Below, piece by piece: positions 1,134 to 32,614 of a stretch of 37,639 nucleotides of DNA. The DNA lies in the NCBI GenBank assembly GCA_032718475.1, contig JAUCBJ010005280.1, positions 1 through 37,639 on the forward strand. The letters are read 5' to 3'. A program made the translations under genes and the position numbers. Source of the stretch: Nemertoderma westbladi (taxonomy: Eukaryota; Animalia; Xenacoelomorpha). Numbering within the stretch: position 1 is the first letter of the stretch; each line of letters begins with the position of its first letter. The notes beneath the pieces were generated by a model, which ran no database searches, was not told the DNA's origin, and saw nothing but the letters and a program-made list of their open reading frames with translations.

Positions 1134-4100
1134 AGTGAATGCGTAACAAGACGAACAAGAATTACTATTTTGGGATTATTGATAAGAGTTTATTTGAAAG
1201 AATACTTATTATGTGCTTTCTTGAATATCATTTATGAAATTTGCCTTATAATTAGATTAATATTTTTTCGACGTTTGATTGCGTACTATTTACAAATCGA
1301 AAGCAGTACTTCACTTGAAAGCGCATTGGTCGATTGTCTCATAATTGGAATCGCATCTTTTATATCAGTACTGGCATTTACAAATTCGAATTTCTATTCT
1401 TTTCTATTATGGAATAAGATTAAAGTTGGATGCAGTGCACTTATCTATGGCAAACTCCTGACATTAGATGCAGGAGGAATCCAAAGTACGACAATCGGCC
1501 AGATAACTAACCTGTTGTCATCTGATGTTGGACGATTTGAGACAATGGCGATCTATGGAAGCTATTTAGTCTCAATCCCTATTGTTATAATTCTATGGTT
1601 CCCATTGATGTATTACTATATTGAGTGGTCTGGTATTTTTGGATTATTTCTCTCCATTTTAGTTATTCCATTGAGTTTAGGGTTGTCAGAAATATTTAGC
1701 AGATTACGTGTTAAAGCTGCAGCATTAACTGATCGAAGAATAACATTGTTGAGTGAAATATTAGTTGGAATGAAAGCAGTAAAAGCATATGGTTGGGAGG
1801 AATTATTTGAAGAAGCTATAAAAATGGCTCGAAGCAAAGAATTTTTACAAATAAGTAAGATCATGTATTGCCATTCGTTCTACACTGTAAACTTCTTTGC
1901 CTATGTCAATATTGTAACATTTTTTGTTTTTGTATTATATTCAGCACTGGAATTTAAATTAAATATTATCACTGTACTAACCGCTAACATTATGTTCTCC
2001 ACTTTACTCACAAATGTAATGGAATTTGCTGTCTCTTTGCGAGATTGTGGTGAACTTAAGAGTGTTTTTCAAAGAATAGATAAATTTCTTGGTTTCAAGT
2101 ATAATTATTTAATTGACGTGGAATGGTTAGAAAGTAGTAAAAAAGATAAAATCATGTTAGATCCTAAAGATATTTTTCTATCTGTTGATAATATTTCTGG
2201 GAGATGGGCAAACAACACCCCATATGTGATACATAATCTAACATTTAAAGCATATTTTGGGGAGATTGTTTACGTAATAGGACCAGTTGGTTCTGGAAAG
2301 TCTAATCTACTGCAGGCAATATTAGGAGAGTTGCCTATAGAAACTGGATCTATAAATAAGAATGGGAAGATGGCCTATGTATCGCAAACACCATTCATAT
2401 TCTCGGGAACTATACGGGACAATATCCTACTGGGCCAAACATTTGAGGCAAAATGGTTTAACGAGGTTCTCGATCTTAGCTGTTTAACAATGGATCTATT
2501 AAATTTTAAAGATGGGGATAATACTTTAGTTGGAGAAAAAGGTATTTCATTATCTGGTGGCCAAAAAGCTCGTATTGCTTTAGCGAGAGCGGTTTATTCT
2601 AGAGCAAATATATATCTTATGGATGATCCTCTTTCAGCTGTGGACAGACGAGTGGCCAATAACTTAGTAGATAACTGTTTGAAGCACTGCCAATCAAGAG
2701 GTATTGTAATTATCGTTACCCACCTACTGCAAATTATCCCTTCAAATTCAAGAATTGTATCTCTTTATGACAATGATGTCTATAAATCGCTAAACATGGA
2801 GTTCTCATCACAAACTTATAACGAAACTAACATAAGTTTATCTCGAACTTATGAAAGCGAAATGATCGAAGGTGATAAATTCGATATTATGATAGATTCT
2901 GTTAGTGATTCGTTCATGGAAAGAACAAATGATTCCGGATGGATACCTACTCTGGTCTTTATAATGGCTGGTTTATCTGGACCGCGGCTTATAGTTTTAA
3001 CATTATCTTTACTATTTTTATTGATGCATTTAACATTATCAGATTATTGGTTGGTAACTTGGGCTATGCAAGAATCTATAAATGACACACAAGATATTGA
3101 GTACAATGATGAAAATATTATTATGAAATTTATCGCTGAGAGCAATTGGAGTGGCATTGTACTTGGGTATGCATACCTGGTTTTTTCATACTTAGTTTGC
3201 ATAACTTTCAGTATGTTTGCAGCATATACTATTGTTCTGGGCGATTCTAACAATGTACATAGAAGAATTCTAAAAACAGTATTGCATGCACCAATGGCAT
3301 TTTTTCATAATAATTCAGCAGGAGGTATATTGAACCGATTCTCGAAGGACTTGGGAATATTGGACAACATAATCGCGGACTCACTTGCAGATATGTTGCA
3401 ATATATATGTCGTTGTTTTCTTGTTATTTTACTTGCGGGGATATCTAATCCACTTTGATGATATCAATTCCCACACTTATCGCTGTTATATGGATACGAA
3501 ATTATATAATGAAAAGTCTTAAACAGGTGAAGTTTCTGGAAGGATCAGCAAGGAATCCAGTATATCAGCATGCCTCTGATACCATAGAAGGCCGAGTTGT
3601 AATAAAGGCATTCGGGATTCAGGCAATTTATTTGAAACGTTTTCTCTACCACCTGGATAATCACACTGGATCATTGTTTATGGTTTATGGGCTCCAATCA
3701 TTGCTTACTATCAGTGTTTCTATGTTTTATGCTGTCTTTACCATATTGTTTTTACTCATATCTTTGTATATGGATAGCTTTGTATCAAAAGAAGTATTAG
3801 GTATAGCAGTAACATATGTGTTTGGCTTTGTAAATTTTTTAGCATTTATTATGTTCGATTCGGCAGTGCTGGAACTGCATTTAACATCTGTTGAACGAGT
3901 TCTTGATTACACAAAACTAGACCAAGAGGCTGCATTCCATATACCTAGTGTTCAACCTCGAATTACTTGGCCGAGTGCCGCAATTATTTATTTCAAAAAT
4001 GTTAAACTTACATACGGTGATAATGAGGTGTTGCATGGAATCAATTTTGTAACTCGGCCTTTTGAGAAAATAGGAATTGTAGGACGAACAGGAGCTGGTA

Positions 4101-4744
4101 AATCCTCATTGTTTACAGTATTGCTTCCCCTTGTAGAACCTCAAGGAATAATCATGATAGATGATGTTGATATAACAGAAATTGGTTTACATGATTTACG
4201 GAAGTCAATAGCAGTCATTCCACAGGACCCCGTTCTGTTTCAAGGTACTTTGCGTTACAACTTAGATCCTTTTAGTGAATTTGACACTATAGAAATCATG
4301 AAAGCTCTAGAATGCGTTCAATTGAAAACATCACTAGAAATGAGACCCCTTTCTAATTGGGGTTATGGTTCTATTAGCCTCTCTGACAAGAAAACAGCAG
4401 ACGTTTTGGATTTTGAAGTTGAAAACCGTGGCAGTAACCTCAGCGTTGGGGAGAAGCAGTTAGTTTGTTTAGCAAGAGCAATGTTAAGAAACTGTAAAGT
4501 TGTGCTTATTGATGAGGCAACATCATCCATTGATCAGTTTACAGATGGAATTATACAGAAGATAATTTCAAATAATTTCTCTAAAGCAACTGTGTTCACA
4601 ATATCCCACAGGATTAATACTTTCGTGAACTGCGACAGGATAATAGTGATGAGTGAAGGAAAGATTGTAGAATTTGAAGAACCAGAATGTTTACTTGAAG
4701 ATAAGAACAGCTTCCTATATAACGTAGCTAATGAGGAACACTAG
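1134..4744 (+). CDS. ABCC4: ABC transporter subfamily C (MRP4/ABCC4-like, TMD1-NBD1-TMD2-NBD2); large terminal exon with one frameshift at ~3455
   Basis: NBD1 has GPVGSGKS, LSGGQ and the ABCC-type Walker B IYLMDD. NBD2 has GRTGAGKS, IPQDP, LSVGEKQ, VLIDE and SHR. TMD motifs include GQITNLLSSDV and GGILNRFSKD. There is no ATG: a polypyrimidine tract plus CAG acceptor at 1131-1133 opens the frame in phase at 1134. ORFs 1170-3458 and 3455-4744 join at ccactttgatg. The symbol is family-level; orthology is not established. Confidence 0.9.
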
Positions 4745-7990: not shown

Positions 7991-8300
7991 CTGGGGAAAC
8001 CGTTGCGCCCCCCCCCCCCCTCCACCCCACCCCCACTCTCCCTTAGGTTCTCACGAATCCCTAAATTTCTGATAGAATGTGCACAATTCTAGCTCAGTCG
8101 ACCGACACGTGCTGTGTTATTAGTTAGAGACCTGATGGCAGGGAAATAATAAAACAATGGCAGGAAAACTTTAAAGTGCTAATTATGAACAATGGAGATT
8201 TTAATTTTATTTATTTGTGGGGAAGTATTTGTAGTTATGCACTGAAACGTTCTAGAACAACCTAATAATGACGCAGTGACATACTGGAATACTGTACATA

Positions 8301-9042
8301 CAGTACAGGCCACCAGAAAACGCAAATTTGTACAATTGTGAACACATTTTATCAAATGTGTACCAGTGTAATGTAATGTTGTTGAACGGGACAATTGAAC
8401 ATAATTGAATTGGCAACAACCAAAATTTTTTCGCCAAAGGATACAATTGAATACTTTTGAAACGCTTAGTAATCTGGAAACTCTCTGTAGTTTGCCGCTA
8501 ACTGTCACTCACTGCAGCTGGAAATGCGATAAGGATATTGTTTACCTTTATAGTGTGCGGTTAATGGTGTCTAGTAGGCAGGCCTATAGTTAGTGATGTT
8601 AAGGCATCTTCTGGTGTTTCTCTGTGCCCTCTCGGAGTCAGACTAATGGCGCGACATCTCCCTGCACTAAATTAATTATTCAATGGTCTAGGCTCCTCCA
8701 TCCATATGCCCATCCACTCCCATACACCCCATGAACATTAACAGTGTGCGGTTAGTAGTCTCTATATACACTCCATGAACCTCCATGTGGTCTTGTATGT
8801 AGTTCTCTCTCTACCAATACAGCCCATGTCCGCAATGTTACGCCCTGGGGGCTCTCTCATCTACCTGATATCAGACATACAGGCGCACCGCACACAAAGC
8901 CTTTGTCGGTCCCAGCAAGTCAGCCTCCTGCTGTGTGATCTAGAAGATAACTCGCCATAACCTGCCAATCAGACGACTTGAACAAATGTGTTCACATGTG
9001 ATCACATTGGATGAAATCTGCTTTTTCTGGTGGCCTGTACTG
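8301..9042. mobile_element. Non-autonomous Tc1/mariner-type DNA element (742 bp)
   Basis: TIR cagtacaggccaccagaaaa (20 bp perfect, ~29 bp with 2 mismatches). TA flanks both ends (8299-8300 and 9043-9044). Confidence 0.85.
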
Positions 9043-9046
9043 TAGT

Positions 9047-10312
9047 TGTAAAAGCTTTTGCGGATATAACCAGTCATTTTTCTCCACAATAAACTGTTTA
9101 GTTGTTTTAGCGGACATAACAAGCCATTTTCTCCGCAATGTACCCTGTAGGTGTTTTAGCGGACATAATAAGCCATTTTATGCCACAATACGCCAAATAC
9201 TCTAAATACAGTGTAGTTCAGATGACGAAATCTGTCAGCTGATTTGATGTCGATGTGGAGCTTTCTTAACTTTCCTTGTTCGGCTCGCTCGACCAATCAG
9301 AGCGATTTTCATTTTATTTTGCACAGAGGCCTATGGAAAACCGCGCAATGCATGACGGTCTTTGTTTACCTTTCTGAGCGAGAACAACTGCTTGGAAATT
9401 ATTCTGTACTTCTGTGTTAGAAGTTTCAGACTTTGGCCAACATTAGACGGCTTTGATTACAAGAACGTAAATCTATTATCTGCACTCTGGCCACCTGAAC
9501 AACTGTAAACCAAACTGCATCACCTGGACTGACTGGATGCATTACTGGCCCTACTGCACTGTGCAACTGTGCAACTAACCATAAAACTGGTTACTTGGCA
9601 CCTGCGGTACCGGTATCACCGATACTGGCTGAATATCACTGCATTATTGTACTTCTGTTTACTGTCTGTTATTAATGGTTATATGTTGATGGATATGTTG
9701 TTATATTTGGAGAATATCGATAAATAATTATAAAACCCCATCTTCTTGATTACTAAAGGTTAGAGGGACCGGTTACCGGTAGCAATTGCGACTTACATTA
9801 CAGTGGTTTTAGTGTGCATTCAAAGCATTCAAATGCTATTTCATAATCCCTACATGTGTCAGTTGCTATCCTCCTTATATATGATCAAATTCAGTGACGG
9901 TCGGCAGATCAGTGTGCAGCAGTGTGAAATCGTATGCAGCAGTGTGACAGATAATAAAGCATATCCTAAAGAATGCGCTATTTACGAAAATCATTAGCCA
10001 TCTCGTTGTGTTTAGTATAAGTCATAACTCTGTTTTATACTTAAAACGCCACATCCTAAAGGAACTGTTAATATTTCCCTGAAAGTGAATAATATTGTCA
10101 GAGATTATATAGTAACAATCAATCGAATAATACAGTAGGTCTGCAATGCAATAAGGTCAAAGCATCCGAATCCAGTCTCCCTTAACTGTGGGTTAATGAT
10201 CGCGCATAGACTGGCTTCGGCTAATGTTACTTCATGTGCATTAAATAATTGTTATAGGCTAAAGTCGATTTATAAACAAGAGGACACCTAAAATTGGATA
10301 GTTCTTTTTACA
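9047..10312 (+). repeat. 5' LTR
   Basis: Matches 20391-21633 up to 10297. TGTAAAA...TTTTACA inverted termini suggest the end is at 10312 (tentative). It starts with three ~50-bp internal repeats (gcgga..ataac...ccgcaat). Confidence 0.85.
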
Positions 10313-10382
10313 GAACACAGCAGAACACAGTAGAACACAGCAGAACACAATAGAATACAGACGGAACATAGGCGAACACAGC
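10313..10382. repeat. 10-bp minisatellite (gaacacagca), ~7 degenerate copies
   Basis: Seen directly after the putative LTR end, where a PBS would be expected. Confidence 0.7.
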
Positions 10383-11841
10383 TGTAATTAAAATCTACAC
10401 CAAAAAATAACACACTTGGGAAAGTACCGGACTTAATCATACAACTGTAAGATGTCAATTACATATTTAAATTAAATGGCGGTTTTCCATATCCTCCAAA
10501 ATAAATTACCTGATCAGGCCACCCTGGTTTTTTATTGGGATTTTACTTATTTCTGTCAGTTTTATTTATATGTAAGTGTAATATTGAGCAGAAGGCGTGT
10601 AAGCCCGCTCAAATTGTACAGATAATTTGTAGGCTGGATTGTTGTCTGGCTGTTGTTAGGTCTGAAGAGATTGCAGTGTGTGTAGAGTGTATGTCAGATA
10701 AAGTACTAGTTAGGAAGGTGGGGACATCCAGTGCTGTAAGGTAAATCCCCCCTGAAAGAATAAGTCGTACTACTCGGTTAGAACGCATACTAACTAACCA
10801 TTTCGGAGTCTGCATATACTGTAGTTTATTTAGGCTTGATAGTAGTCTGCCAGCGTTTGGTCTGTATTTTGTTTGTGTAGTCTGTACGGGTAGCGTAATA
10901 TTTATTATTCAGAGTCTATGCGAGTATTCGCAACATACATAACTCCACAAGTTTATTCCTACAGTAATTGTGCTTGTTATACATACCGTTATAGTTAAAT
11001 TAACCCCGGTACTACATCAGGGCTGCTTGGCGTAGGTAAAGACGGTGATTTTATGCTCTAGTTACTCCTCCAGATACCGTGGTTCTTTTAGCTGTACAAG
11101 TATTTTTAACCGCTGGTTATTTGTTGTATAAGTACTTGTACCTAATTTAGGGTTTAGTGTACAGTACTTTCCGAAGGTAATTAGTGTGTAGGCAGTATAT
11201 TTGTGTTGTAAAGTGGTTAATAGGCACGTTAGCTCTGGTTGGCTGCGGTAATTAACTTCTAGGTAAGAACACTCCGGGTACATAACGTAGTACTTAAAGA
11301 CTATAAGTCGTCAGACGGTGGTATTTTCTTATCTGGACAACGCAATTTATTTACTACTGCTTAATTATTTTCAAATACCGTAGTCTCCTGTCCGTTGTAA
11401 TAACCAGAAATTCTAACACCTTGTTAGGCTGGTTTGTAGATTTCCTGTAAAATTACCCTAAAATTTGTACGTGTAATTTTTGTGTTTATTTAGAGATTGT
11501 AATCTCACTCCGTAATTGTACATAATTTGTAGTAATAAGTAACTTAGTCAAGTAGAATTATTTGTTTTAGTGTCCAACAAGTAGCATTTCACTGAGAGCG
11601 TTCAGCTTCTGTGTAGTGACTCCTTACCAGAAATAATAACATTTATTTCAAATATTGTCAAAAACCCATTATAAGGGTATATATATATTACAAATCAACT
11701 CAAACCGACTTATAAAATAGTAGGCCTGTCATACATCAATTAGGTCTTAATATCAGTTGGACTACTGCTTAATAACAGTAACAAAGTAAAGAAAAGTAAC
11801 CCCAAAATTCAGAAATTCAGTTATTATAAAATAATTGACAT

Positions 11842-12092
11842 TACCGGTATTTATAGTAGGCTTATTATATTTATTTATATAAATTTACGCTGAAATTATA
11901 TACCGGTATTCTGTAATTAGTCTTAGTCTATAATTGTACTTATATATACTATAAGTGTAAGCTGTATACCGGTATTCATGGTAGGCTTATTATATATTTA
12001 TATATTTATGCTGAAATTATATACCGGTATTCTGTGACAAACCCTAGTCTGTAATAATACTTATATATACTACAAGTGTATACCGGTATTCT
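11842..12092. repeat. ~125-bp AT-rich tandem duplication containing taccggtatt motifs in the BEL leader
   Basis: taccggtatt...gtaggcttattatat...gctgaaattatataccggtattctgt occurs twice, plus a partial third motif. Confidence 0.7.
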
Positions 12093-12227
12093 AATATATT
12101 GTATATATATCACGTTACATTGAGTAACGATATCGGTAATTAATTACTAGGCTTACAGTTGATACTGAATTACTAGATTTGCTTTAGCTGTCGTTATAGT
12201 AGTAGGCATTCAACTGTACAATCAAAC

Positions 12228-15200
12228 ATGGCTGACCCAAAGCAAACTCTGTCAGATAGTCTCCTAGAAAGAACAGTCTGCGACTCCGACAGGAGTACCG
12301 AACATTTGACACCAAAGTTCAAGTCCCCTCCTACTGTAAGAAAGGTCATCCCTCCAGTAGTAGTATCAGACCCTAGGCTAGTAAAGCACAGTAGGTCTAT
12401 CATAGGCACTCGGGCTCAAGTCAAGCGGGACCAAGAGGCAGCTGTTAAACAACAGCAACACTCGAGCCGAGAACTTATTTCTCAGCGGCCCGATAGCTCC
12501 GGTAGTTCAGATACTGTAGAGTTGACACCCGAGCGCGGAACAAAGATAGCAGAAGCAGTTTATTCGGATCCACTTCTCATTCTTCCTGAAGCTGTACTCA
12601 CTAGGGTATTGATTGCGGTGGAGGAACATCAAATCAATTGGGCGAGAAGTAAGCGATCGACCAAGGACAGTTATGCGGGATACACAATGGAGGAACTGAA
12701 GTCTATTGTCGAGACGCAATGGAACTTCCCCGGACCCGGACTCCCGTTTAACTTATCGGAAGCTGCCTGAGAGGACTTATACAGGATGGGAGTGGTAAAG
12801 GACACTAGAGATCCAGCTGTATGGAAGAGGTCGGCAGCAGGATATGTACAGGGATTCTTCAGCTCTTTAGAGCGATTAGAGGAACAACTGTTCCAACAAC
12901 CCCAGGGACCTCAAGAGCAGGGAGAGCTGCTTTATCAAGTTCGAGAACGTATCCTAAGAATCAGACTAATCCTATCGGCCTTTGAGGAAGCTTCGAAAAG
13001 AAGCCAAGACACGTCGTTGCAAGTTGCCGTAAAGACTTGGTTCCAGCGGGTGGGTGTCAAAGTTCAAGGAACGGCCCAGTGGAACATTCAGCTGGCTGAG
13101 CACTCGACCCACGGAGAATCAACAGACGCTACCTTTTCTCAGGTGGAAAGCGAGGTTACATTAGAGAAACCTCAGAAGAAGGATGCCATTGACATCTATC
13201 TGTCGGACTATCAACGATTTATAGGAGATGAAGAGCTAAGGAGACGACTATCTGGACTTCATCCTACTAGTGAGGGAGCCAAATTTGTGTTAGACGCATT
13301 AGATGCGGAAATGTTATCCGTAGAACAGGCTAAATTTGATGAAAGTATCCTCATCGCTAGGGAACAGGAAGAACAATTAAAGAAATAATGGATAGAAGAC
13401 AGAAAGGCAGCAGCAGCGGCAGCGGCAGAAGTTGAAAGAAAAGCGGCAGCTGCAGTGGCAGCGGCAGAGGCTGAAAGAAAAGCGGCAGCTGCAGCGGCAG
13501 AGGCTGAAAGAAAAGCGGCAACGGCAGAAGCGGAAAGAAAAGCTGCAGAAGCGGAAAGAAAAGCGGAGGGCATCTGAAGAGACAGTCCAACTAGAGTTGG
13601 AAAATCTTCAAGAGAAGCAAGATTACTTCAATAAACAAAGAACAGCTAAGTATATGCAGATGGTAAGTCGATCTACTCCCAAGAGACAGGGATTTACATC
13701 ATCTGATGAAGGCGATACAACAGATCCTGAAGGCGGAGGAAATAGATCTCGTTCCAGCAGACGTAGAAGAACGCCTCACCATCAGAGATTGCCTAATTTG
13801 CCCCCAGCTGTGAGAAGGCAACTAGCTAGTGCAGACTGAGGTAGTGCAGAACCCACAGACCAAATTATTAGAGTAGAAAGACTCCCTACTATAGTAGATG
13901 AGCCTGAAATAATTAGGCCTGTTCTCGAAGCCACCCCTTCGGTGATCGAGACACCTGTACTTCCAGAACCTAACTCTAAATTCCCTTTGCACAGTACTAA
14001 ATTACCTGTGCCCAATAGAATAGCCACAGAAACAGTCCCAGTCTTGGACGCCGAGCGAGACATCAATGATTTATCGCCCATCGTCCCTCGTCTACCCGCT
14101 ACTATGTTAGAACTGCAAAAAGTGCAGCAGAGTATCGCGTTAGAACGCGATAAATTAGTAAATATACAAAGGGGTATAACACCACCCCCTGTAACAATGT
14201 GTCAACCTGTTAGGTCTGAAGTATTTCATGTGCAAGGTGTGGAGCCTACACGCATCTATACTGCTAGTGAAGTAGAAACTCCTATAGTAAACCCTATTAA
14301 GGGTAATTATAAACCTGTTGATAATGATATTACATATAGACCTGATCATAATCCGAGAAATTTATATACCGATAACTCGATATTAAATAATACGATGGCC
14401 CAAGAAAGTTTTACGCGTCAAATGGCTAGAACCGAAGCCCGTCAAGCGGTAAAGGTGGGAGAGATCGTCAAGTTCAACGGAGATGAGATGAAATGGTTAC
14501 CTTTTAATGAATATTATAAAGATAACATACAGAACTCTGTGCTATCTAACGGAGAGAAACTTAGATTCCTCATCGTGTGCTTGGAAGGACCGCCCAAGTT
14601 AATGGCGTTAAAGTTTATTGGACATCCAGATGGATTAAGACAAGTTTGGGATACACTAAACATCAGGTATGGTAATAGGACTAACATAGCTCGGTATTTG
14701 TATGCGAAATTAATGGCGCCCCGAAAGTTTCTTAGCAGCGGGATTATAGAGTTTTCCGATGAGATTCAGGAGATCTGTAGACAATTAGACTGGTTGGGTA
14801 AGTCTCATGAATACCAGAATTCTATGGTTGTAGGAGCCTTAGCATCAGCTTTGCCAAAGGGTGAAGTAGGTACTCGCTGGGACAAAAAGGTTCTCTATTT
14901 GATGGACCAACAACATAGAGATCCAACCATGATGGACCTTCTGTCATTCTTAAACCGAGAGGTAAGATTACAACTCCTAAAACAGTCTAGAGAGAAGACT
15001 CCTGAAAGTGAGGTAAGTGAAAAACCCGTTTCTAGGAGAAAGGTAACACCAGTGTGTTATACAGACGACGGCGAAAGCCAAACCTCCCACGAGGAGAACA
15101 GCGGGAAAGACACCGAAAGATCTTATTATATCAACAAAACTCGGAAAGATGTAAGTAAATTTAAGTCTCGAACCAGTGACAGGAGAGAACAGGTAACAAC

Positions 15201-17039
15201 TCCTCCTACGTCTCCTAAGAGAATTCATGGAAGAAAGCCCGAGGAAAGAACAAGTGTGCACCACACAGCACAGGTTAAAGTAAGTAACATCAAGCCCAAA
15301 TGTGTATTGTGCGATGGGCCACATCGCTTAAGTGGGTGTGATGAATTCCTGAAGAAATCCCTTAAGGATAGACGTGATGTCATGTGGGATAAGCGGTTGT
15401 GTTATAATTGTCTCAGACGAGGCCACCAACGGCGGACCTGTTACTCAGATGCTAGGTGTGCTAAGTGCGGCGCGAAACATCATATCTTGCTGCATACAGA
15501 ATTTGAAAGAACCCGCACGAGTCAGGTAAGTGAGCCCGAACTACATGTCCAATTCAGTGATGTGAACGACACTGACCACAGCTCTGAGATGGAAGGATTC
15601 TACACTGACGAATTCTCCGACGAAAACGAATCCTGTTATATGACAAACACCGCGGTGTATCGAGCGCTTACGTATGAGACTGAAACCGATAACGAAGCGA
15701 ACCCGGCCATTCCTGACCGACAACCATCTTGGAAAGCGCCAACTTCCAACGTCGGAATCCGGGAATTCCCCATAGTTCAGCTGAGAGTCCATGGATCAGG
15801 TAAGAGTTTTATAGTCAACGCCCTCCTGGACTCCGGCAGCACAGGAACATTCATCGACAAAGAACTAGCCGAAGACATCTTTGCTGGACAACCCAAGTTC
15901 CGAACTAAGTTGAACCTTTCAGGAATTATGCAGGTTTGGAAATCCACAGTAGCTACAGACTACTATGTAGGAGCGTTGTCCACTCCCCAGGACCAACTAG
16001 GAGAACATAGCATAAGGTCAGTAAAAATGGTGGCGATAAAGAACTTTGCTACCAGCCAAATGGAACCTTACAACTGGGATGAAGACGATTTTACCCAGCA
16101 GCATGATATCCCTAGATTCAACACCACCCAGGGGTACAGATACTCATCGGACAAAATGTGCATGAAGCGCTAGAGACATTAGAAAAACGGCCTGCTCGGC
16201 CGCAACCATTACAAACATATGCGGGAAGAACAAGAGTAGGTTGGTACTTCACTGGACCTTCCCGTAGGACACTCATGGAAAGGCTACCTAACGACCAAGT
16301 CCATCAAGTGAGTGAATGGGAAGAAGAAATCAGTGAGGGAGAGACCACAACTGATGGAATACCATACTCCTCAGATAATGACGATATTAACTCTAATGTA
16401 GATCAATGGAGACATTGCCCTGGGACGATTAATCCAGCCGACATCGCTTCCAGAGGAGCAACCCCTCAAGAACTGATAGATACTCCGGACAGGTTAGGTG
16501 GACCCGACTTCCTAAGTAAAGAAGAAGATGAATGGCCTCCCCATCTTACCACGGCTGAGATTAGACAAGCCAAGGGAGCGGAGAAAGTCAAACCTAAAAC
16601 CCGGACGAGTAAATCAAAGTTATTCAAACCCGTGATAGATCGGTCTGTACTACACATTTCCAGGGACGACGCTGTAGATCTAAACTCCCCCGCCACAAAT
16701 AAATCTGTTGTGGAAATCAGAGAAAAAGACTGGAAATCTGGAACACCAGACGTCTCGCAGGGATTCTCACCTCTCCTGCAGAGAGCGATAAATCACTATA
16801 GCTCCTTGAATCGGCTTTGTAAGGCCGTCGTGTATTTGAAGCGATGTTTCTATTGTCACTATTCCAGGACGAAGAAGAAACCTGGAATTGTATTTGAAAC
16901 ACAACAACCCAATCGCTCAGTTGGTCGTTTATGTTTACTGGAAAGAGACAGAGAACTATCCGGAAACTATGGAAGGCAAGATACTCTTCCCACGACCACC
17001 TCCCTAATCCAACAAACATCTAGGGACTCCCCAACATAA
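12228..17039 (+). pseudogene. BEL/Pao gag-pro-(deleted pol) polyprotein pseudogene
   Basis: ORFs 12228 and 12786 share a frame, as do 13432 and 13942. Stops at 12768, 13386 and 13837; frameshifts at ~13570 and ~16130. Motifs: DUF1759-like FNGDEMKWLPF..EKLRFLIVCLEGPP, three Cys/His knuckles (CVLCDGPHRLSGC, CYNCLRRGHQRRTC, CAKCGAKHHILLH), protease ALLDSGS, RTRVGWYFTGP, RNase H end QWRHCPGTINPADIASRG, pol C-terminus RSVGRLCLLE. No RT or integrase core. Confidence 0.9.
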
Positions 17040-17565
17040 CAGCGTCTGGAGTGGGTGTGTGACCATATTATTTTATATTCGTTTTTTTTTATTATTTTAT
17101 ATTTAGGTATGTATTATTATGTAATTTTCTAATAATCGTTTTCTTTAATTTTATTTAGTAGAATGTTATTTTAGCGATTATTTAGTAGAATTAGTGCAAT
17201 ATATATTCGTGTTTATTACTTAATTACTTATATTATATATTTAGTGCAATGGCGAGAAATAATTCTTTTTCTCTTTCCTTACTGTCCGTATCATATTATA
17301 AATACGTGACTACAGTAAGATGAAATGTCCGTACTTATTAAAGTACAATAAAGCTCCTACTATACTTAAGTATTATTGGTAAGTAGAGTATTAGGAATGC
17401 AAAGTTCAGATCCTCGTGTCTTGGCTAAACCAAGCTCTGGGTAGACCTTGGAAACGACTTGCCTCTTCTCACTGACATTGCTTCTTGCAATATTGCTCTC
17501 ATACCGTATATTAAATAATACAAATAGTAGTGTGATGTCCCTTTAACAGTAGCGTACAATGCAAA

Positions 17566-17968
17566 TAAATCTGTTAAACCCTTTGACCATCTGTAATTCT
17601 AGTCGATTAAGATATCGTGGCACCCACCGATATACTTGAAAGACAAAATTCTAGAATCAATGGTTAATGTCCCCAGACATGTTCTGGAATAAATCGGTGC
17701 CCATCTTAAATATTACATAGTTAATATTTATAAAAATCTATTAAAACAAATGTTATAATAGAGTAAATGCATACAAATAAACTCTAAGGAGTTTGTAAAC
17801 CAAGAAAATTTATAAATCAAAATCTGTTAAAATTTAGATCCTTTAAAATTCTAGTCGATTAAGATATCGTAGCACTTACCGATACTCTTAAAAAGACAAA
17901 TTTCCTAGAATCAAGGATCCCAGTCCCCAGACATGCTCTGGAATAAAATTGTGTCTATTTTAATATTA
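17566..17968 (+). ncRNA. Two ~150-nt direct repeats predicted to fold into the same RNA structure (copies ~17566-17715 and ~17819-17968)
   Basis: The attctag/ctagaat and ttaagatatcg/cgata..ctt.a stems are shared. The basal stem is ttgaccat/atggttaa in copy 1 and gatcctt/aaggatc in copy 2 (compensatory). The repeat is certain; the RNA function is inferred. Confidence 0.45.
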
Positions 17969-18572
17969 AATAATAAAATTTATGGGAATAAATTTAAATT
18001 CATATCCTTTCATGAATTTGATAAATTGTCATTTTATACAATTTATAATATTCCCAAAATTCCATTAATTAATAGATCATGGGAGCGGAGATTCACCCTA
18101 TTAAGTGTATTAGTGTGCGAGAATCTCCAATATATAGTCAATAGCCGATAAAATTCATAAAATCATGTATAAGGGGGAATATTGACAATTAAAGAATTAC
18201 TATTAAATAGCATCCCAGATCTGTATGCATGAGAATTACCCTAATTCTACTGCTAGCTTTCCATAATGTCACCATGGCAACAACCACGCTAGAATTAGAA
18301 GTGAGTTAAAAGAACAATAAAAAGCTTGCCCCATTGAATAGCATACGGAATAAATAGCGCACTGCTAGTATCCAGGGATACATAATAATAACGTGGCATT
18401 CTGGAAGGCACTTGACTAACGGACAGATGGCCCGAATGTGTACAATTTGTGACAGTTGTGTGGAGTTTGTGCGTTTATAGGTGAATGTTACTACTAAAGT
18501 GTGTTTACAGTAGCGAGTCGCAGTTGTGAAAGTAGCCCTAACCCTGCAGTAAGAACCTGAAGTAAATATAAG

Positions 18573-18704
18573 CCCTTGGGACGGACAGTGGAGTGACTCG
18601 CGCTGGTTGTTGTTGTCGTTGTGCAGCTACTACGTTGGCGATAGACACAGCGGCGACAGTACATCAGCGCTGAGGATCTTGCACTGTCCGGGGGCCGTGA
18701 GGGG
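18573..18704 (+). ncRNA. Long G-U-rich RNA hairpin upstream of the extra ORF
   Basis: cggacagtg (18582-90) pairs with cactgtccg (18682-90); gcgctggt with atcagcgc; tgttgtcgttgtg (18611-23) with cacagcggcgaca (18646-58). Confidence 0.5.
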
Positions 18705-18769
18705 TAGGCAGCGACGCCCGCTAGCCTAATTATAATTAATTATAATATTGATAAACTCATATAGCAGCT

Positions 18770-20298
18770 ATGTCTGAGTTGATAGAAGATGATCTTGGTA
18801 TCAGGGAGCGATATACCCTACCATTGTTGATAGTTTAATACGCGGTGACGCTAGTCCCTCTACTACGGAGGACGATGGCCGTTATATCGAACCGCCAATG
18901 TCCAAGGAACAACTCACGCGTGAATTGGACTATAGAAAATTCACCGCTCGCTATACGCATCGTAATGGTACGTATATAGACTTCTTTACTACTGGCCATC
19001 CTATTGATTTACACGATATGGACAATGTAGGCACCGAAAGGGAAATGATCCTATTTAAATATCATACCCAGCAGAGTCGGAACGACAAACTGAGAATCGA
19101 ACACGAAAATTCTATTCGAAACCAACTCGAAAGAGAAGACGTTAAAGAACCTGATAAACGCAGTGACTTCAACGTATATTTGGAATTCTTGAGAGAGACG
19201 TTGTAAAACTGGAGAAAGATCACCCGCGTTTCCCCTACAAGACGTGCTTCTTTGGTATTATTACGATGAATGCCCTAGACCCAACCAACACACGGAAAGA
19301 CATAAACATCCACGGAGACGTTGCGCTAAACACAGTTTTACTCGCTATATTTACGGGAGTTTCGAGCGAAACTTGTTCGACGTATCACTTACGCTCGCTC
19401 GACTCAAACGATCCTTAAATAAACCGATGATCAGAGTTCCGGAATACTCGGTCAGGCCTCCTCACTCCCTGGTGAGACCTCAGACTCTTGATCCTAATAG
19501 TATGACGGATCCTCCTGAGCTGTACTCATTGTTCAAAGATCTAGTGTTATCCGAACAATTAGTTGGTGGCACTCCGGTTGTAGGCTCCCTCGATATTCGC
19601 CCATCCTACCTAGCTGGATTGGGACGCGGATACCTAATATCGCCGTTCAACCCGTATAATCGTCCCAATCTAACCCCGATACAACCTGTCACCGAGGTGG
19701 AGGAGAGAGTTGTACGCAACGCGTTAGACACTATTCGACAAAAGATTGGAAAAGGAACCTACGATTGTTCAGAGAAATGTAAATTGTAGCAGCAAGTCCA
19801 AGCGGTAAACGAATTAGCTTTATCTCAGTTCAATCGGGAAATCCAGAATCTCTAAGAAGATATCGAACTTGGACGACTCTACTCTCTGCAAGAGTTTTGG
19901 ACGAATGCTTCCAACGACAAGCAGAGGAAAATCAGCTCGAGGAGAAGCATATCGATTTCGACAAAGCCCGAGAACGTGAGTCGAAAAGAACCATCAAACT
20001 GAGGAAATTTCTCACTACACGCGGTCCACCTACCACTCTCGTGCAAACGACCCGTCAGGAACCAGTAAGAGCTGCTGTCTTAAAACGCGCTCTCAAGGTT
20101 GTTCGACCTCATTCCATTGAGGTTGATACCGATCAACCGGGTACCTCGACTGGCGGATACACCGACCATAATCCTAAACCTTCCGATGCAATTGTATTGC
20201 ACCCTTCACCCAGGAGTTATAGCCCTCCTAGTAAAGTGGCTCGCCCCAAAGAGAAAAGGACTCTTGCTAGCCTCAAAAAACTGCGTAAACACCGTTAG
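18770..20298 (+). pseudogene. Decayed extra ORF of the BEL element (unknown soluble protein, ~500 aa)
   Basis: ATG at 18770. Sense ORFs 18898-19206, 19244-19789 and 19897-20298 are contiguous and linked by frameshifts and in-frame stops. It ends in basic KRTLASLKKLRKHR ~90 bp before the PPT. No signal peptide or TM segment is visible. Confidence 0.65.
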
Positions 20299-20382: not shown

Positions 20383-20390
20383 GGGAGCGG
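20383..20390 (+). promoter_or_regulatory. Polypurine-tract-like plus-strand primer site
   Basis: gggagcgg lies immediately before the TGT start of the 3' LTR. Confidence 0.6.
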
Positions 20391-21633
20391 TGTAAAAGCT
20401 TTTGCGGATATAACCAGTCATTTTTCTCCGCAATAAACTGTTTAGTTGTTTTAGCGGACATAACAAGCCATTTTCTCCGCAATGTACCCTGTAGGTGTTT
20501 TAGCGGACATAATAAGCCATTTTATGCCACAATACGCCAAATACTCTAAATACAGTGTATAGTTCAGATGATGAAATCTGTCAGCTGATTTGATGTCGAT
20601 GTGGAGCTTTCTTAACTTTCTTTGTTCGGCTCGCTCGACCAATCAGAGCGATTTTCATTTTATTTTGCACAGAGGCCTACGGAAAACCGCGCAATGCATG
20701 ATGGTCTTTGTTTACCTTTCTGAGCGAGAACAACTGCTTGGAAATTATTCTGTACTTCTGTGTTAGAAGTTTCAGACTTTGGCCAACATTAGACGGCTTT
20801 GATTACAAGAACGTAAATCTATTATCTGCACTCTGGCCACCTGAACAACTGTAAACCAAACTGCATCACCTGGACTGACTGGATGCATTACTGGCTCTAC
20901 TGCACTGTGCAACTGTGCAACTAACCATAAAACTGATTACTTGGCACCTGCGGTACCGGTATCACCGATACTGGCTGAATATCTCCGCATTATTGTACTT
21001 CTGTTTACTGTCTGTTATTAATGGTTATATGTTGATGGATATGTTGTTATATTTGGAGAATATCGATAAATAATCATAAAACCCCATCTTCTTGATTACT
21101 AAAGGTTAGAGGGACCGGTTACCGGTAGCAATTGCGACTTACATTACAGTGGTTTTAGTGTGCATTAAATGCTATTTCATAATCCCTACATGTGTCAGTT
21201 GCTATCCTCCTTATATATGATCAAATTCAGTGACGGTCGGCAGATCAGTGTGCAGCAGTGTGAAATCGTATGCAGCAGTGTGACAGATAATAAAGCATCT
21301 CCTAAAGAATGCGCTATTTACGAAAATCATTAGCCATCTCGTTGTGTTTAGTATAAGTCATAACTCTGTTTTATACTTAAAACGCCACGTCCTGAAGGAA
21401 CTGTTAATATTTCCCTGAAAGTGAATAATATTGTCAGAGATTATATTGTAACAATCAATCGAATAATACAGTAGGTCTGCAACGCAATAAGGTCAAAGCA
21501 TCCGAATCCAGTCTCCCTTAACTGTGGGTGAATGATCGCGCATAGACTGGCTTCGGCTAATGTTACTTCATGTGCATTAAATAATTGTTATAGGCTAAAG
21601 TCGATTTATAAACAAGAGGACACCTAAAATTGG
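20391..21633 (+). repeat. 3' LTR (probably lacking its last ~15 bp)
   Basis: About 16 substitutions and 2 small indels versus 9047-10297 by eye. Homology stops at cacctaaaattgg. No matching TSD was found. Confidence 0.88.
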
Positions 21634-22078
21634 CAGGTTAAACTGCTAAAGGTCTGAAAGCGCGAACAATAGTAAATGTATGGCGTGGAGATATGGTAGT
21701 GCGAAATTAATTTTTTTACCGGAAACGAGTTTTATAAATATAGGCCCGAGGCCCTAATAGATAAAAATAAAAAGGATAAATTAATTGTAGATAAAATAGT
21801 TGTTGATAAAAAAAACGTGTTAGAAATAACTTCTTGACCCTAATTTAATTTAACCGAAATTGAGATGTTCTGCCCTCGTGTATTGAATTTTGCATTGGAT
21901 GGCCTTTCCTGCAAAACCTAAAAGCATAATTGGGCAGCATAATTGAATTTGGTAAATTAAAATTAGTGACAAAAATTACTTATTTCCGAGACTGTTCTCT
22001 ATCGGAGAACATTTCTTTCTCAGCAAGTCCAAATCTAGATATGAAATATTATATCTTTGCACTAAGCCCACACTTTTG

Positions 22079-22675
22079 GTGTGGGCTACTCCTATCTGCT
22101 ACCCGAAGGTAGGGGTGAGCGCTACTCCTATCTGATACCAGAATGTAGGTGTGGGCGCCACTCCTATCTGATTGATACCCGAAGGTAGGGGTGGGCGCTA
22201 CTGCTATCTGATACCAGAATGTAGGGGTGGGCGACACTCCTATCTGATACCCGAAGGTAGGGGTGGGCGCTACTGCTATCTGATACCAGAATGTACTGGT
22301 GGGCGCCACTCCTATCTGATACCCGAAGGTAGGGGTGGGCGCTACTGCTATCTGATACCAGAATGTAGGGGTGGGCGCCACTCCTATCTGCTACCCGAAG
22401 GTAGGGGTGGGCGCTACTCCTATCTGCTACCGGAAGGTAGGGGTGGGCGATACTCCTATCTGCTACCCGAAGGTATGGGTGAGCGCTACTCCTATCTGCT
22501 ACCAGAAGGTAGGGGTGGGCGCCACTCCTATCTGCTACCCGAATGTAGGGGTGGGCGGTACTCCTATCTGCTACCCGAAGGTATGGGTGGGCGCTACTCC
22601 TATCTGCTACCCGAAGGTAGGGGTGGGCGCTACTCCTATCTGCTACCCGAAGGTAGGGGTGGGCGCTACTCCTAT
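22079..22675. repeat. 36-bp minisatellite, ~16.5 copies
   Basis: Unit tactcctatctgctacccgaaggtaggggtgggcgc. It produces the 12-aa periodic ORFs in several frames. Confidence 0.95.
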
Positions 22676-31387: not shown

Positions 31388-32614
31388 GGCCCCGGTAGCG
31401 CTACATCAATATTTTTTTGAAAAACATTTTTTTTATTTCATCTAGAGCAGATTTTTATCAAGATTCCAAATTTGAAAACCGTTTAGCAAGATCTGTCCTA
31501 CTTCTCGAGATATTGCTGTATGTCCGTTTTACTGTCGGTTTGTCCGCAAGTATGTCTGTCCGTCAATAAAAAGCATACTATCTGTCTAAAAAATTCCCTG
31601 TATGGGTTTTCGTGGGCGGTGACTTCATTTCTGATGTCATTAATCAAATTTGGCCTTGTCGGTTCTGTCTGTATGCCTGTCAGTCTGTCTGTCAAAATAT
31701 AACCGACAATCTGACAGCCAAACATACAATTTGGAAGTCGTCAAATGTTAACATTGACAGTCGAAATTAATTCTGCGACCAGGAAAACCGCTATAGCTAA
31801 ACTTTTAGCTCAATGCTGTGCATTTTTCTTATATTTGACAGACAGATAAGTCGGATAGTCAGAAAGACCGAGAGACAGACATACAGACAAACTAGATTTC
31901 ATTAAAATTGAAAAGTGACCTCAGAAATGAAATCAGCGACCAGGAAAACCCCCATAGCAAAATTCTTAGCATGGTTTTATGCTTTCTTGCTGATAGATAT
32001 ATATTGACAGACTTTCTCACATATTAACAGAAGACAGTTTTGTGCGGGAAGGTTCAAATTTGAAAGGCAATTATCTCGGAATGGTATTTTTGGCCTAAAA
32101 AAGCTTTAGACAATTAAATTTTCAATAAATTTTCAAAAATTTTGCTCAGAGGGGTTCTCTGATGTGCTCTCTCTTCAGATATCTCGATCTCGATCTCGAA
32201 TTCTGATTGTTTTATTCCAATATGGAAATAAATGGCCAAAATTGAATAAAATATTGATAATTTTTAATTTATCAAAATTTGTACAAAACAACAGCACCAA
32301 AATGACAATTGTTAATTAATTTTCGAAGTTTTGCTTCGAGATATAGAAAGAGCAAACATTTTTGATGCGATTTGAAAAATTAGAAAGAAAAATACTCAAG
32401 ATTGAATCTGCTGAAGGTTTTTGGATTTTTGTCCAAAAATTTGCCAACATTTGTCAATAATTTTCCAAATTTTTGAAAAATTTGAATTTTTTATTTTTAT
32501 TCATAATTACAATCTTCCATTGACCTTCATACAAAGTTATGGTCGTTTCTAACAATGAGAAGTTGCTCTAACAAGGCAATATAAAAATTATGTCCATGTA
32601 GCGCTACCGGGGCC
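31388..32614. mobile_element. Non-autonomous TTAA-specific DNA transposon (Kolobok-type GG termini), 1227 bp
   Basis: Perfect 19-bp TIR ggccccggtagcgctacat, TTAA on both sides (31384-87 and 32615-18), and long imperfect internal inverted repeats at ~31550-31690 and ~31860-31990. Confidence 0.85.

What the first reader, a model, noticed from the sequence alone, without database searches (positions are those of the whole stretch)
17566..17968. Duplicated RNA motif with compensatory base changes and a possible pseudoknot
Seen: two copies ~253 bp apart. The basal stem changes from ttgaccat/atggttaa to gatcctt/aaggatc while keeping pairing, and the upper stems and a second hairpin (ccaga..tctgg) are conserved. 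The apical loop tggcacc can pair with downstream ggtgccca in copy 1, and tagcac with gtgtcta in copy 2 (one bulge, covarying G-C to A-U). Inference: a functional RNA (packaging or export signal, IRES-like element, nuclease-blocking element or new ribozyme). It fits no motif I recognise.
Basis: partly seen in the sequence, partly recalled or inferred. Interest (0 to 1): 0.7.

Follow-up and report, generated by a model that had tools for sequence, protein, structure and literature searches.

The report
Twin RNA folds in a retrotransposon
A jumping gene in what is likely an animal genome carries two side-by-side copies of a 140-base non-coding sequence whose predicted stems are spared by mutation across the family, so it is likely a working RNA signal, most likely one that helps the full-length RNA leave the nucleus; it matched no catalogued RNA family.

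Summary
The duplication is real: two copies 253 nt apart, 78% alike. Each is predicted to fold into a long interrupted hairpin plus a 5-bp hairpin (alignment fold z -5.6, 0 of 1000 shuffles as stable).

They lie on the sense strand, in the 1.7-kb non-coding gap between the pol remnant and an orphan, broken 3' gene of a BEL/Pao-type LTR retrotransposon that lacks the RT and integrase cores.

New evidence comes from sequencing runs: of 30 listed variable sites, 5 fall in stems (about 17 expected); of 15 common ones, 1 does, and it can still pair.

The pseudoknot is less secure. It is strong in copy 1 (-12.1 kcal/mol, p 0.001), but weak and unprotected in copy 2, and its 'covarying' base also covaries with a partner inside the loop.

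No Rfam, hammerhead, HDV-like, group I or type 6 IRES match. Best reading (0.4): an export signal for unspliced genomic RNA, working like CTE/RTE/MTE without being one. Rivals: packaging or dimer site, nuclease block, new ribozyme, IRES, hitchhiker. Expression was not shown. The scan's notes held no look-alike on other DNA.

The parts
17567..17704 (+). Motif copy 1: A/U leader shared by both copies (17568-17579), long hairpin P1 (17583-17667) with apical loop 17618-17627, hairpin P2 (17673-17687), tail 17696-17703 complementary to the apical loop
17820..17958 (+). Motif copy 2: leader, P1 (17837-17919) with apical loop 17870-17879, P2 (17927-17941), tail 17950-17957 (weak complement of the loop)
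17705..17819 (+). A/U-rich spacer between the copies; some other family copies have a shorter one
   Evidence: contigs in X1, X3 and X5 join across it with 8-44 letters between; depth drops sharply
9047..10297 (+). 5' LTR (starts TGT; 3' end not defined)
   Evidence: 97.8% identical to 20391-21633 over 1253 nt; no PBS or target duplication recognised
12228..16173 (+). BEL/Pao-type gag-protease region, interrupted by stops
   Evidence: DUF1759 E 5e-13; weak zinc knuckle and Asp protease hits; 26 hits, all with BEL/Pao-type Pfam sets
16116..17062 (+). pol remnant; RT and integrase cores absent
   Evidence: tblastn of 9 of the 26 relatives: matches jump from about residue 810-840 to 1360-1400 (P0005, P0021) and stop by 16883. 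The end at about 17062 is inferred from reading frames.
18771..20298 (+). Orphan 3' gene in several frames (broken), basic C-terminal end
   Evidence: ORFs; no homologue found; model pLDDT 39
20383..20390 (+). purine-rich tract just before the 3' LTR (likely PPT)
   Evidence: sequence
20391..21633 (+). 3' LTR (starts TGT; 3' end not defined)

Best explanation
The two copies are a tandem, predicted RNA structure that is likely under selection in the 3' non-coding part of the full-length RNA of a BEL/Pao-derived LTR retrotransposon, and they most likely act as a docking site that would bring an export factor onto the unspliced RNA so that it leaves the nucleus to be translated and packaged.

Shown: the duplication, its position and strand inside the element, and the lack of listed variants in the stems. 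Predicted: the P1 and P2 helices, and a loop-to-tail pseudoknot in copy 1 that would compete with a three-pair closure of the same loop. Inferred by analogy only: the export role; the partner (host NXF1, or a protein of the element such as the orphan 3' gene, as with Rev or CERV); and the benefit of two copies (two binding sites, as with multimerised CTEs).
For: Structure. z -3.0/-2.9; alignment z -5.6, 0 of 1000. Between the copies, 13 changes in 40 pairs break 3 pairs and give 3 double-sided compensations (p 1e-4 to 5e-3 by simulation, post hoc).

Family variants. 5 of 30 listed sites in stems (134 of 242 positions, p 4e-6); 1 of 15 among sites with at least 10% share in X3 (p 7e-5). Per copy, Fisher p 0.048 and 5e-5.

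Age. The copies differ by about 22% while the LTRs differ by 2.2%. Both copies are covered in runs X1, X3, X4 and X5, and X5 contigs join the end of copy 1 to copy 2. So the duplication is likely old and kept.

Position. Sense strand, after pol. An element lacking RT and integrase cores would depend on cis signals.

Analogy. The MPMV CTE is a 150-175 nt stem-loop with internal loops; RSV uses direct repeats (PMC7551171 passages). IAP RTE and MusD MTE, the latter with pseudoknot and kissing loop, export retrotransposon RNA (PMC12786077 passage). Tandem gamma-CTE copies add activity (PMC4174252 passages). Both window copies carry AAGACA beside an internal loop (17640, 17893).
Against: No functional or expression data. 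AAGACA is weak support: it occurs 8 times in the element, its GAC is predicted to pair with GUC (probability 0.45-0.99) rather than sit in a loop as in CTEs, and 17894 differs in 35% of X3 depth. The two-fold symmetric loops of a CTE are absent.

No splicing of this element was shown, so the need for an export signal is assumed. No homologue outside this family was found, so there is no deep covariation.

The variant tables are filtered by the tool (89 rows hidden; appears to list only sites well inside contigs), depth shares are rough, and some copy-2 variants could be cross-laid copy-1 contigs. Single contigs break stems (17883, 17908, 17940). The flank 17400-17560 is about as conserved in the family as copy 1 itself.
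Confidence: 0.4

Rival explanations
1. No present function: a once-folded or captured sequence was duplicated and hitchhikes in a young, abundant family.
For: The flanks are about as conserved as copy 1. No homologue elsewhere. The copy-2 tail varies as freely as unpaired sites (4 of 12 vs 17 of 45, p 1.0). The variant tables are filtered.
Against: Variants avoid stems in both copies; two double-sided compensations in the basal stem; the two-copy layout persists in four runs under two organism labels.
Confidence: 0.15
2. Packaging or dimerisation site: the hairpins bind Gag, or loop and tail pair between copies or between two RNA molecules, helping a non-autonomous RNA into particles.
For: The element keeps gag but not the RT or integrase cores. 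Cross-pairing of each loop with the other copy's tail is possible (-6.2 and -6.8 kcal/mol). A tandem layout allows domain swapping.
Against: Packaging signals of LTR elements usually lie in the 5' leader (own knowledge). Cross-pairs are weaker than the copy-1 self pair (-12.1). The loop is not self-complementary.
Confidence: 0.13
3. Nuclease block (xrRNA-like): the pseudoknot stalls 5'-3' decay and leaves a stable 3' RNA that carries the orphan gene.
For: A hairpin whose apical loop pairs downstream, in tandem and upstream of a 3' gene, resembles the layout of viral xrRNAs. Flavivirus and Tombus/Luteo xrRNAs need a pseudoknot (PMC8374639 passages) and flavivirus ones often come in tandem (abstract listing).
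Against: No three-way junction. P1 spans 85 nt, far larger than the 15-16 nt ring described. The pseudoknot is unprotected in copy 2. 11 AUGs lie before the gene. A GC-rich stretch and a TATA-like run just before the gene suggest its own promoter (sequence; inference).
Confidence: 0.13
4. A new self-cleaving ribozyme; two in tandem would cut out a short RNA or shorten the 3' UTR.
For: Compact pseudoknotted topology with conserved unpaired bases around P2. The scan's unchecked notes report many hammerhead elements in this genome.
Against: No Rfam ribozyme hit. No hammerhead core, HDV-like descriptor match, twister or hairpin-ribozyme loop in the motif on either strand (motifs recalled). Internal-loop bases vary widely (17857, 17894). 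Sense-strand cleavage would cut the genomic RNA.
Confidence: 0.1
5. IRES that drives the orphan 3' gene from the genomic RNA.
For: Intergenic position. A long interrupted hairpin whose loop pairs beyond a small hairpin loosely recalls the PKII domain of type 6 IRESs.
Against: No PKI followed by a reading frame; the gene starts about 810 nt later, past 11 AUGs. One pseudoknot at most, against three in typical type 6 IRESs (PMC12221177 passages). No Rfam IRES hit.
Confidence: 0.07

Closest known systems
MPMV/SRV-1 constitutive transport element and MLV gamma-CTE (PMC7551171, PMC4330393, PMC4174252; passages read)
   Same: Long stem-loop with internal loops in a retroelement RNA; AAGACA beside an internal loop; repeated unit
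   Different: No two-fold symmetric loops within one stem; GAC of AAGACA predicted paired; the hexamer varies in copy 2; extra hairpin and possible pseudoknot; NXF1 binding untested
MusD MTE and IAP RTE (seen only as described in review PMC12786077, passage; primary papers not read)
   Same: Structured cis element of an LTR retrotransposon; MTE has a pseudoknot and kissing loop
   Different: BEL/Pao lineage rather than mouse elements; no sequence likeness shown; tandem 140-nt units
Rous sarcoma virus direct repeats (PMC7551171 passage)
   Same: Duplicated non-coding element beside an added 3' gene
   Different: RSV repeats flank the gene; here both lie upstream of it, 253 nt apart
Cer1 CERV and Rev/RRE-type export (PMC10309623 abstract only)
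   Same: An LTR retrotransposon with an extra gene of its own; the orphan protein here ends in a basic stretch
   Different: No homology found; no evidence that the orphan protein binds RNA or is made from a spliced RNA
Tandem viral xrRNAs (PMC8374639 passages)
   Same: Tandem pseudoknot-capable units in a 3' non-coding region
   Different: No three-way junction, much longer stem, resistance untested

Membership tests
BEL/Pao LTR retrotransposon (host element) | DUF1759 gag with zinc knuckle, followed by Asp protease | tested here: met
   DUF1759 E 5e-13; knuckle and protease hits weak (E 0.056, 0.011); 26 polyprotein relatives
BEL/Pao LTR retrotransposon (host element) | RT, RNase H and integrase in order after the protease | tested here: not met
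   RT and integrase cores absent; only short flanking pieces match: a deletion derivative
BEL/Pao LTR retrotransposon (host element) | Two LTRs starting TG, purine tract before the 3' LTR | tested here: met
BEL/Pao LTR retrotransposon (host element) | PBS and target-site duplication | tested here: inconclusive
   LTR 3' ends not defined; none of 20 TGG sites in the leader recognised as a PBS by eye
CTE / gamma-CTE | AAGACA hexamer in each unit | tested here: inconclusive
   present at 17640 and 17893, but 17894 differs in 35% of X3 depth
CTE / gamma-CTE | AAGACA displayed in an internal loop; loops in two-fold symmetry in one stem | tested here: not met
   GAC predicted paired; the units are separate hairpins; definition from PMC4330393 passage
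CTE / RTE / MTE | Recruits NXF1 or a cofactor and exports unspliced RNA | not testable with these tools
   needs binding and reporter assays
xrRNA | Conserved pseudoknot | tested here: inconclusive
   strong in copy 1, weak and variable in copy 2
xrRNA (flavivirus classes) | Three-way junction core | tested here: not met
   predicted folds are unbranched
xrRNA | Ring around the 5' end and Xrn1 resistance | not testable with these tools
   needs structure or enzyme assay
Type 6 (dicistrovirus IGR) IRES | PKI directly followed by an open reading frame | tested here: not met
   no + strand ORF of 60 aa starts right after either copy; 11 AUGs before the next gene
Known self-cleaving ribozymes | Catalytic core sequences of hammerhead, HDV-like, twister, hairpin | tested here: not met
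   Rfam; regex and descriptor scans with recalled motifs, both strands; the only hammerhead-like heptamer is at 18670, outside the motif
Group I intron | P7 with J8/7, P3 and a P4-P6 domain in order | tested here: not met
   one P7/J8/7-like pair at 18073/18135 with a mismatch, among 18 loose candidates on + and 6 on -; no Q-like element on +; no Rfam hit

The most novel reading that the evidence does not exclude
The twin motif is a new class of catalytic or nuclease-blocking RNA with which an LTR retrotransposon cuts or trims its own genomic RNA to release a subgenomic RNA for an orphan 3' gene, the loop switching between a local closure and a pseudoknot.
Probability: 0.18. Interest if true: 0.8.

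Novelty: new variant of a known kind. Interest (0 to 1): 0.45.

Why it matters
Structured cis signals are well studied in retroviruses and mouse retrotransposons, but my eight literature searches turned up none for BEL/Pao elements, a large animal lineage. This one is compact, has a natural duplicate and natural variants, and is easy to test in vitro. If it exports RNA, it would show how an invertebrate-type LTR element solves the unspliced-RNA problem. If it blocks nucleases or cleaves, it would be a new RNA class in a retrotransposon.

Tried and rejected
No whole genome is held for this window, so no alignment of genomic copies or R-scape test was possible.

Homologue searches for the motif: viral contigs 0; prokaryote genomes 0; metagenomes 1 hit, L001, a 19-nt match in a bacterial-looking contig with no other likeness, dropped as chance. 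Relatives of gag or the orphan gene in viral contigs: none.

Rfam gave only sub-threshold chance hits (mir-23, RT-19, Bacteroides-1). No tRNA.

Orphan gene: no hits; the Atlas PAS-like hits (0.93, 131 of 256 features shared, recognition below threshold) were not accepted; the single-sequence model was unusable, so no fold search was run.

No RNA holder listed. X5 is only guessed to be RNA and all runs are contigs, so nothing is said on expression or splicing.

Considered by eye and dropped: K-turn (its G varies), SECIS, H/ACA, IRE, Helitron end, Pol III boxes (consensus patterns recalled); and pairing of the P2 loop with the tail (fits some copy-2 variants, poor in copy 1, loop too short). A group I intron, a lead from earlier notes, was not supported. 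The sigma-70 scan is irrelevant for an animal.

Literature searches found no description of this motif; the library holds open-licence papers only, and no supplements were read.

Full report
CONTEXT. The window is likely animal DNA: an uninterrupted ABCC4-like reading frame at 1170-4744, satellites, and an LTR element whose named relatives are from arthropods and a tunicate. The element runs from 9047 to at least 21633, with LTRs 97.8% identical over 1253 nt, both starting TGT, and a purine tract before the 3' LTR. It holds a BEL/Pao-type gag-protease region (DUF1759 E 5e-13) and a pol remnant without the RT and integrase cores (tblastn with 9 of 26 relatives). Then follow 1.7 kb of non-coding DNA (about 17063-18770) and a broken 3' gene (18771-20298) with no homologue found. 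The finding lies in the middle of the non-coding stretch, on the sense strand.

OBSERVATION. The copies are 253 nt apart and 78.4% alike over 167 nt; no third copy is in the window. Each folds into a long hairpin P1 (basal stem, internal loop, 6-bp stem, asymmetric bulge, 3-bp stem, small loop, two 5-6 bp stems with a one-base bulge, apical loop) and a 5-bp hairpin P2. Single-copy z-scores are -3.0 and -2.9 on +, weaker on -. The alignment folds at -23.5 against a shuffle mean of -8.0 (z -5.6, 0 of 1000). Over 40 homologous pairs, pseudoknot included, 13 changes break 3 pairs and give 3 double-sided compensations. Random placement gives this in 0.01-0.5% of simulations, but the pairs were chosen with both copies in view.

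FAMILY VARIATION. Public runs hold many variants of the region: 8047 contigs laid in X1, 1839 in X3, 40 in X4, 26 in X5 (depth is not a copy number). I pooled the 30 substitution sites listed inside the two motifs; indels and sites outside the motifs were left out, and hid 89 rows. Stems cover 134 of 242 positions but hold 5 of the 30 sites (p 4e-6). Among the 15 sites with at least 10% share in X3 they hold 1 (17660, which can still pair; p 7e-5). Per copy, stems vs unpaired: 1 of 70 vs 4 of 37 (p 0.048) and 4 of 64 vs 17 of 45 (p 5e-5). Two variants (17912, 17920) would add pairs, and 17905 favours G17854 pairing with C17897. Against: single contigs break stems at 17883 and 17908, and 17940 and 17848 vary in 4-6% of X3 depth; the tables are filtered; the 5' flank is about as conserved as copy 1. 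The spacer is shorter in several contigs, and X5, under another organism label, also has both copies. As the copies differ ten times more than the LTRs do, the duplication likely predates the family's spread.

PSEUDOKNOT. Copy 1: six contiguous pairs, -12.1 kcal/mol as a duplex; 0.1% of shuffles and 0.8% of real 60-mers do as well; opening the loop costs 3.9. No variant is listed in its 14 positions, while the two bases just before the tail vary, but this is not significant (p 0.56). Copy 2: -4.5, matched by 55% of real 60-mers; 4 of 12 positions vary, like unpaired sites (p 1.0). One phased lineage (X4 and X5 contigs) has two tail changes and, by count of its listed differences, at most one unlisted change that could lie in the loop, so at least one pair is lost there (inference). 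One X4 contig keeps five pseudoknot pairs while breaking the local closure. So the pseudoknot is likely in copy 1, doubtful in copy 2, and may alternate with a CAC triloop.

IDENTITY. No Rfam family reaches significance. Hammerhead, HDV-like, twister and hairpin cores are absent from the motif (motifs recalled). Earlier scan notes raised a group I intron in BEL/Pao pol elsewhere in this genome (the two notes disagree). Here only a loose P7-like pair exists downstream, with no P4-P6, and no look-alike window is indexed. No ORF follows the motif, and 11 AUGs precede the 3' gene, which argues against a type 6 IRES (PMC12221177 passages). No homologue was found in the viral, metagenome or prokaryote collections; none of these is an animal genome collection, so this says little about range.

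MECHANISM. Shown: a kept, stem-protected, sense-strand duplication in the region after pol. Inferred: it works in the full-length RNA. Retroelements place export signals in such RNA: MPMV CTE, RSV direct repeats and MLV gamma-CTE (PMC7551171 passages; PMC4174252 passages), IAP RTE and MusD MTE with a pseudoknot (PMC12786077 passage). Cer1 uses a protein of its own (PMC10309623 abstract). I therefore favour an export signal (0.4). It is not a CTE by the structural definition (PMC4330393 passage): AAGACA is present but predicted half paired, is common in the element and varies in copy 2. Rivals: hitchhiker 0.15, packaging or dimer site 0.13, nuclease block 0.13 (PMC8374639 passages), new ribozyme 0.10, IRES 0.07.

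NOVELTY. A new variant of a known kind (retroelement cis-acting RNA). Eight searches of the open library found no account of it or of such a motif in BEL/Pao elements (listings read, no supplements). The structure is fairly well supported; the function is a reasoned guess. Interest 0.45.

Noticed in passing
window 18582-18694 (+): Long GC-rich hairpin with many G-U pairs (-72.9 kcal/mol for 18575-18730; z about -2.3), followed by a TATA-like run and the first ATG of the orphan gene at 18771: possible internal promoter or second RNA element.
   Followed up: partly
window 17977-18061 and 18087-18128 (+): A three-way junction of A/U-rich hairpins (z -3.4 on +, -4.5 on -) and a further hairpin directly after copy 2. 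Several listed variants fall in their loops, some break the outer stem; depth in X4 and X5 rises here with many loose ends, so the block may be shared with other families.
   Followed up: partly
window 18771-20298 (+): Orphan extra gene of the BEL/Pao element, in several frames, with a basic C-terminal end and no homologue in five searches.
   Followed up: partly
window 1170-4744 (+): ABCC4/MRP4-like transporter with no introns apparent, split in two overlapping frames near 3455: possible retrocopy or assembly error.
   Followed up: partly
window 10297-12228 (+): About 2-kb leader between the 5' LTR match and gag, with a 121-nt tandem duplication at 11842-12091; no PBS recognised.
   Followed up: no
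window 8299-8367 / 8976-9044 and 31570-31985: Inverted-repeat pairs typical of MITE-like elements; one ends just before the 5' LTR.
   Followed up: no
window 22078-22675: 36-nt minisatellite of about 16 units just after the element.
   Followed up: no
window 17275-17350 (+): Two further hairpins upstream of the motif (z -2.9 on +, -3.5 on -; fold).
   Followed up: no
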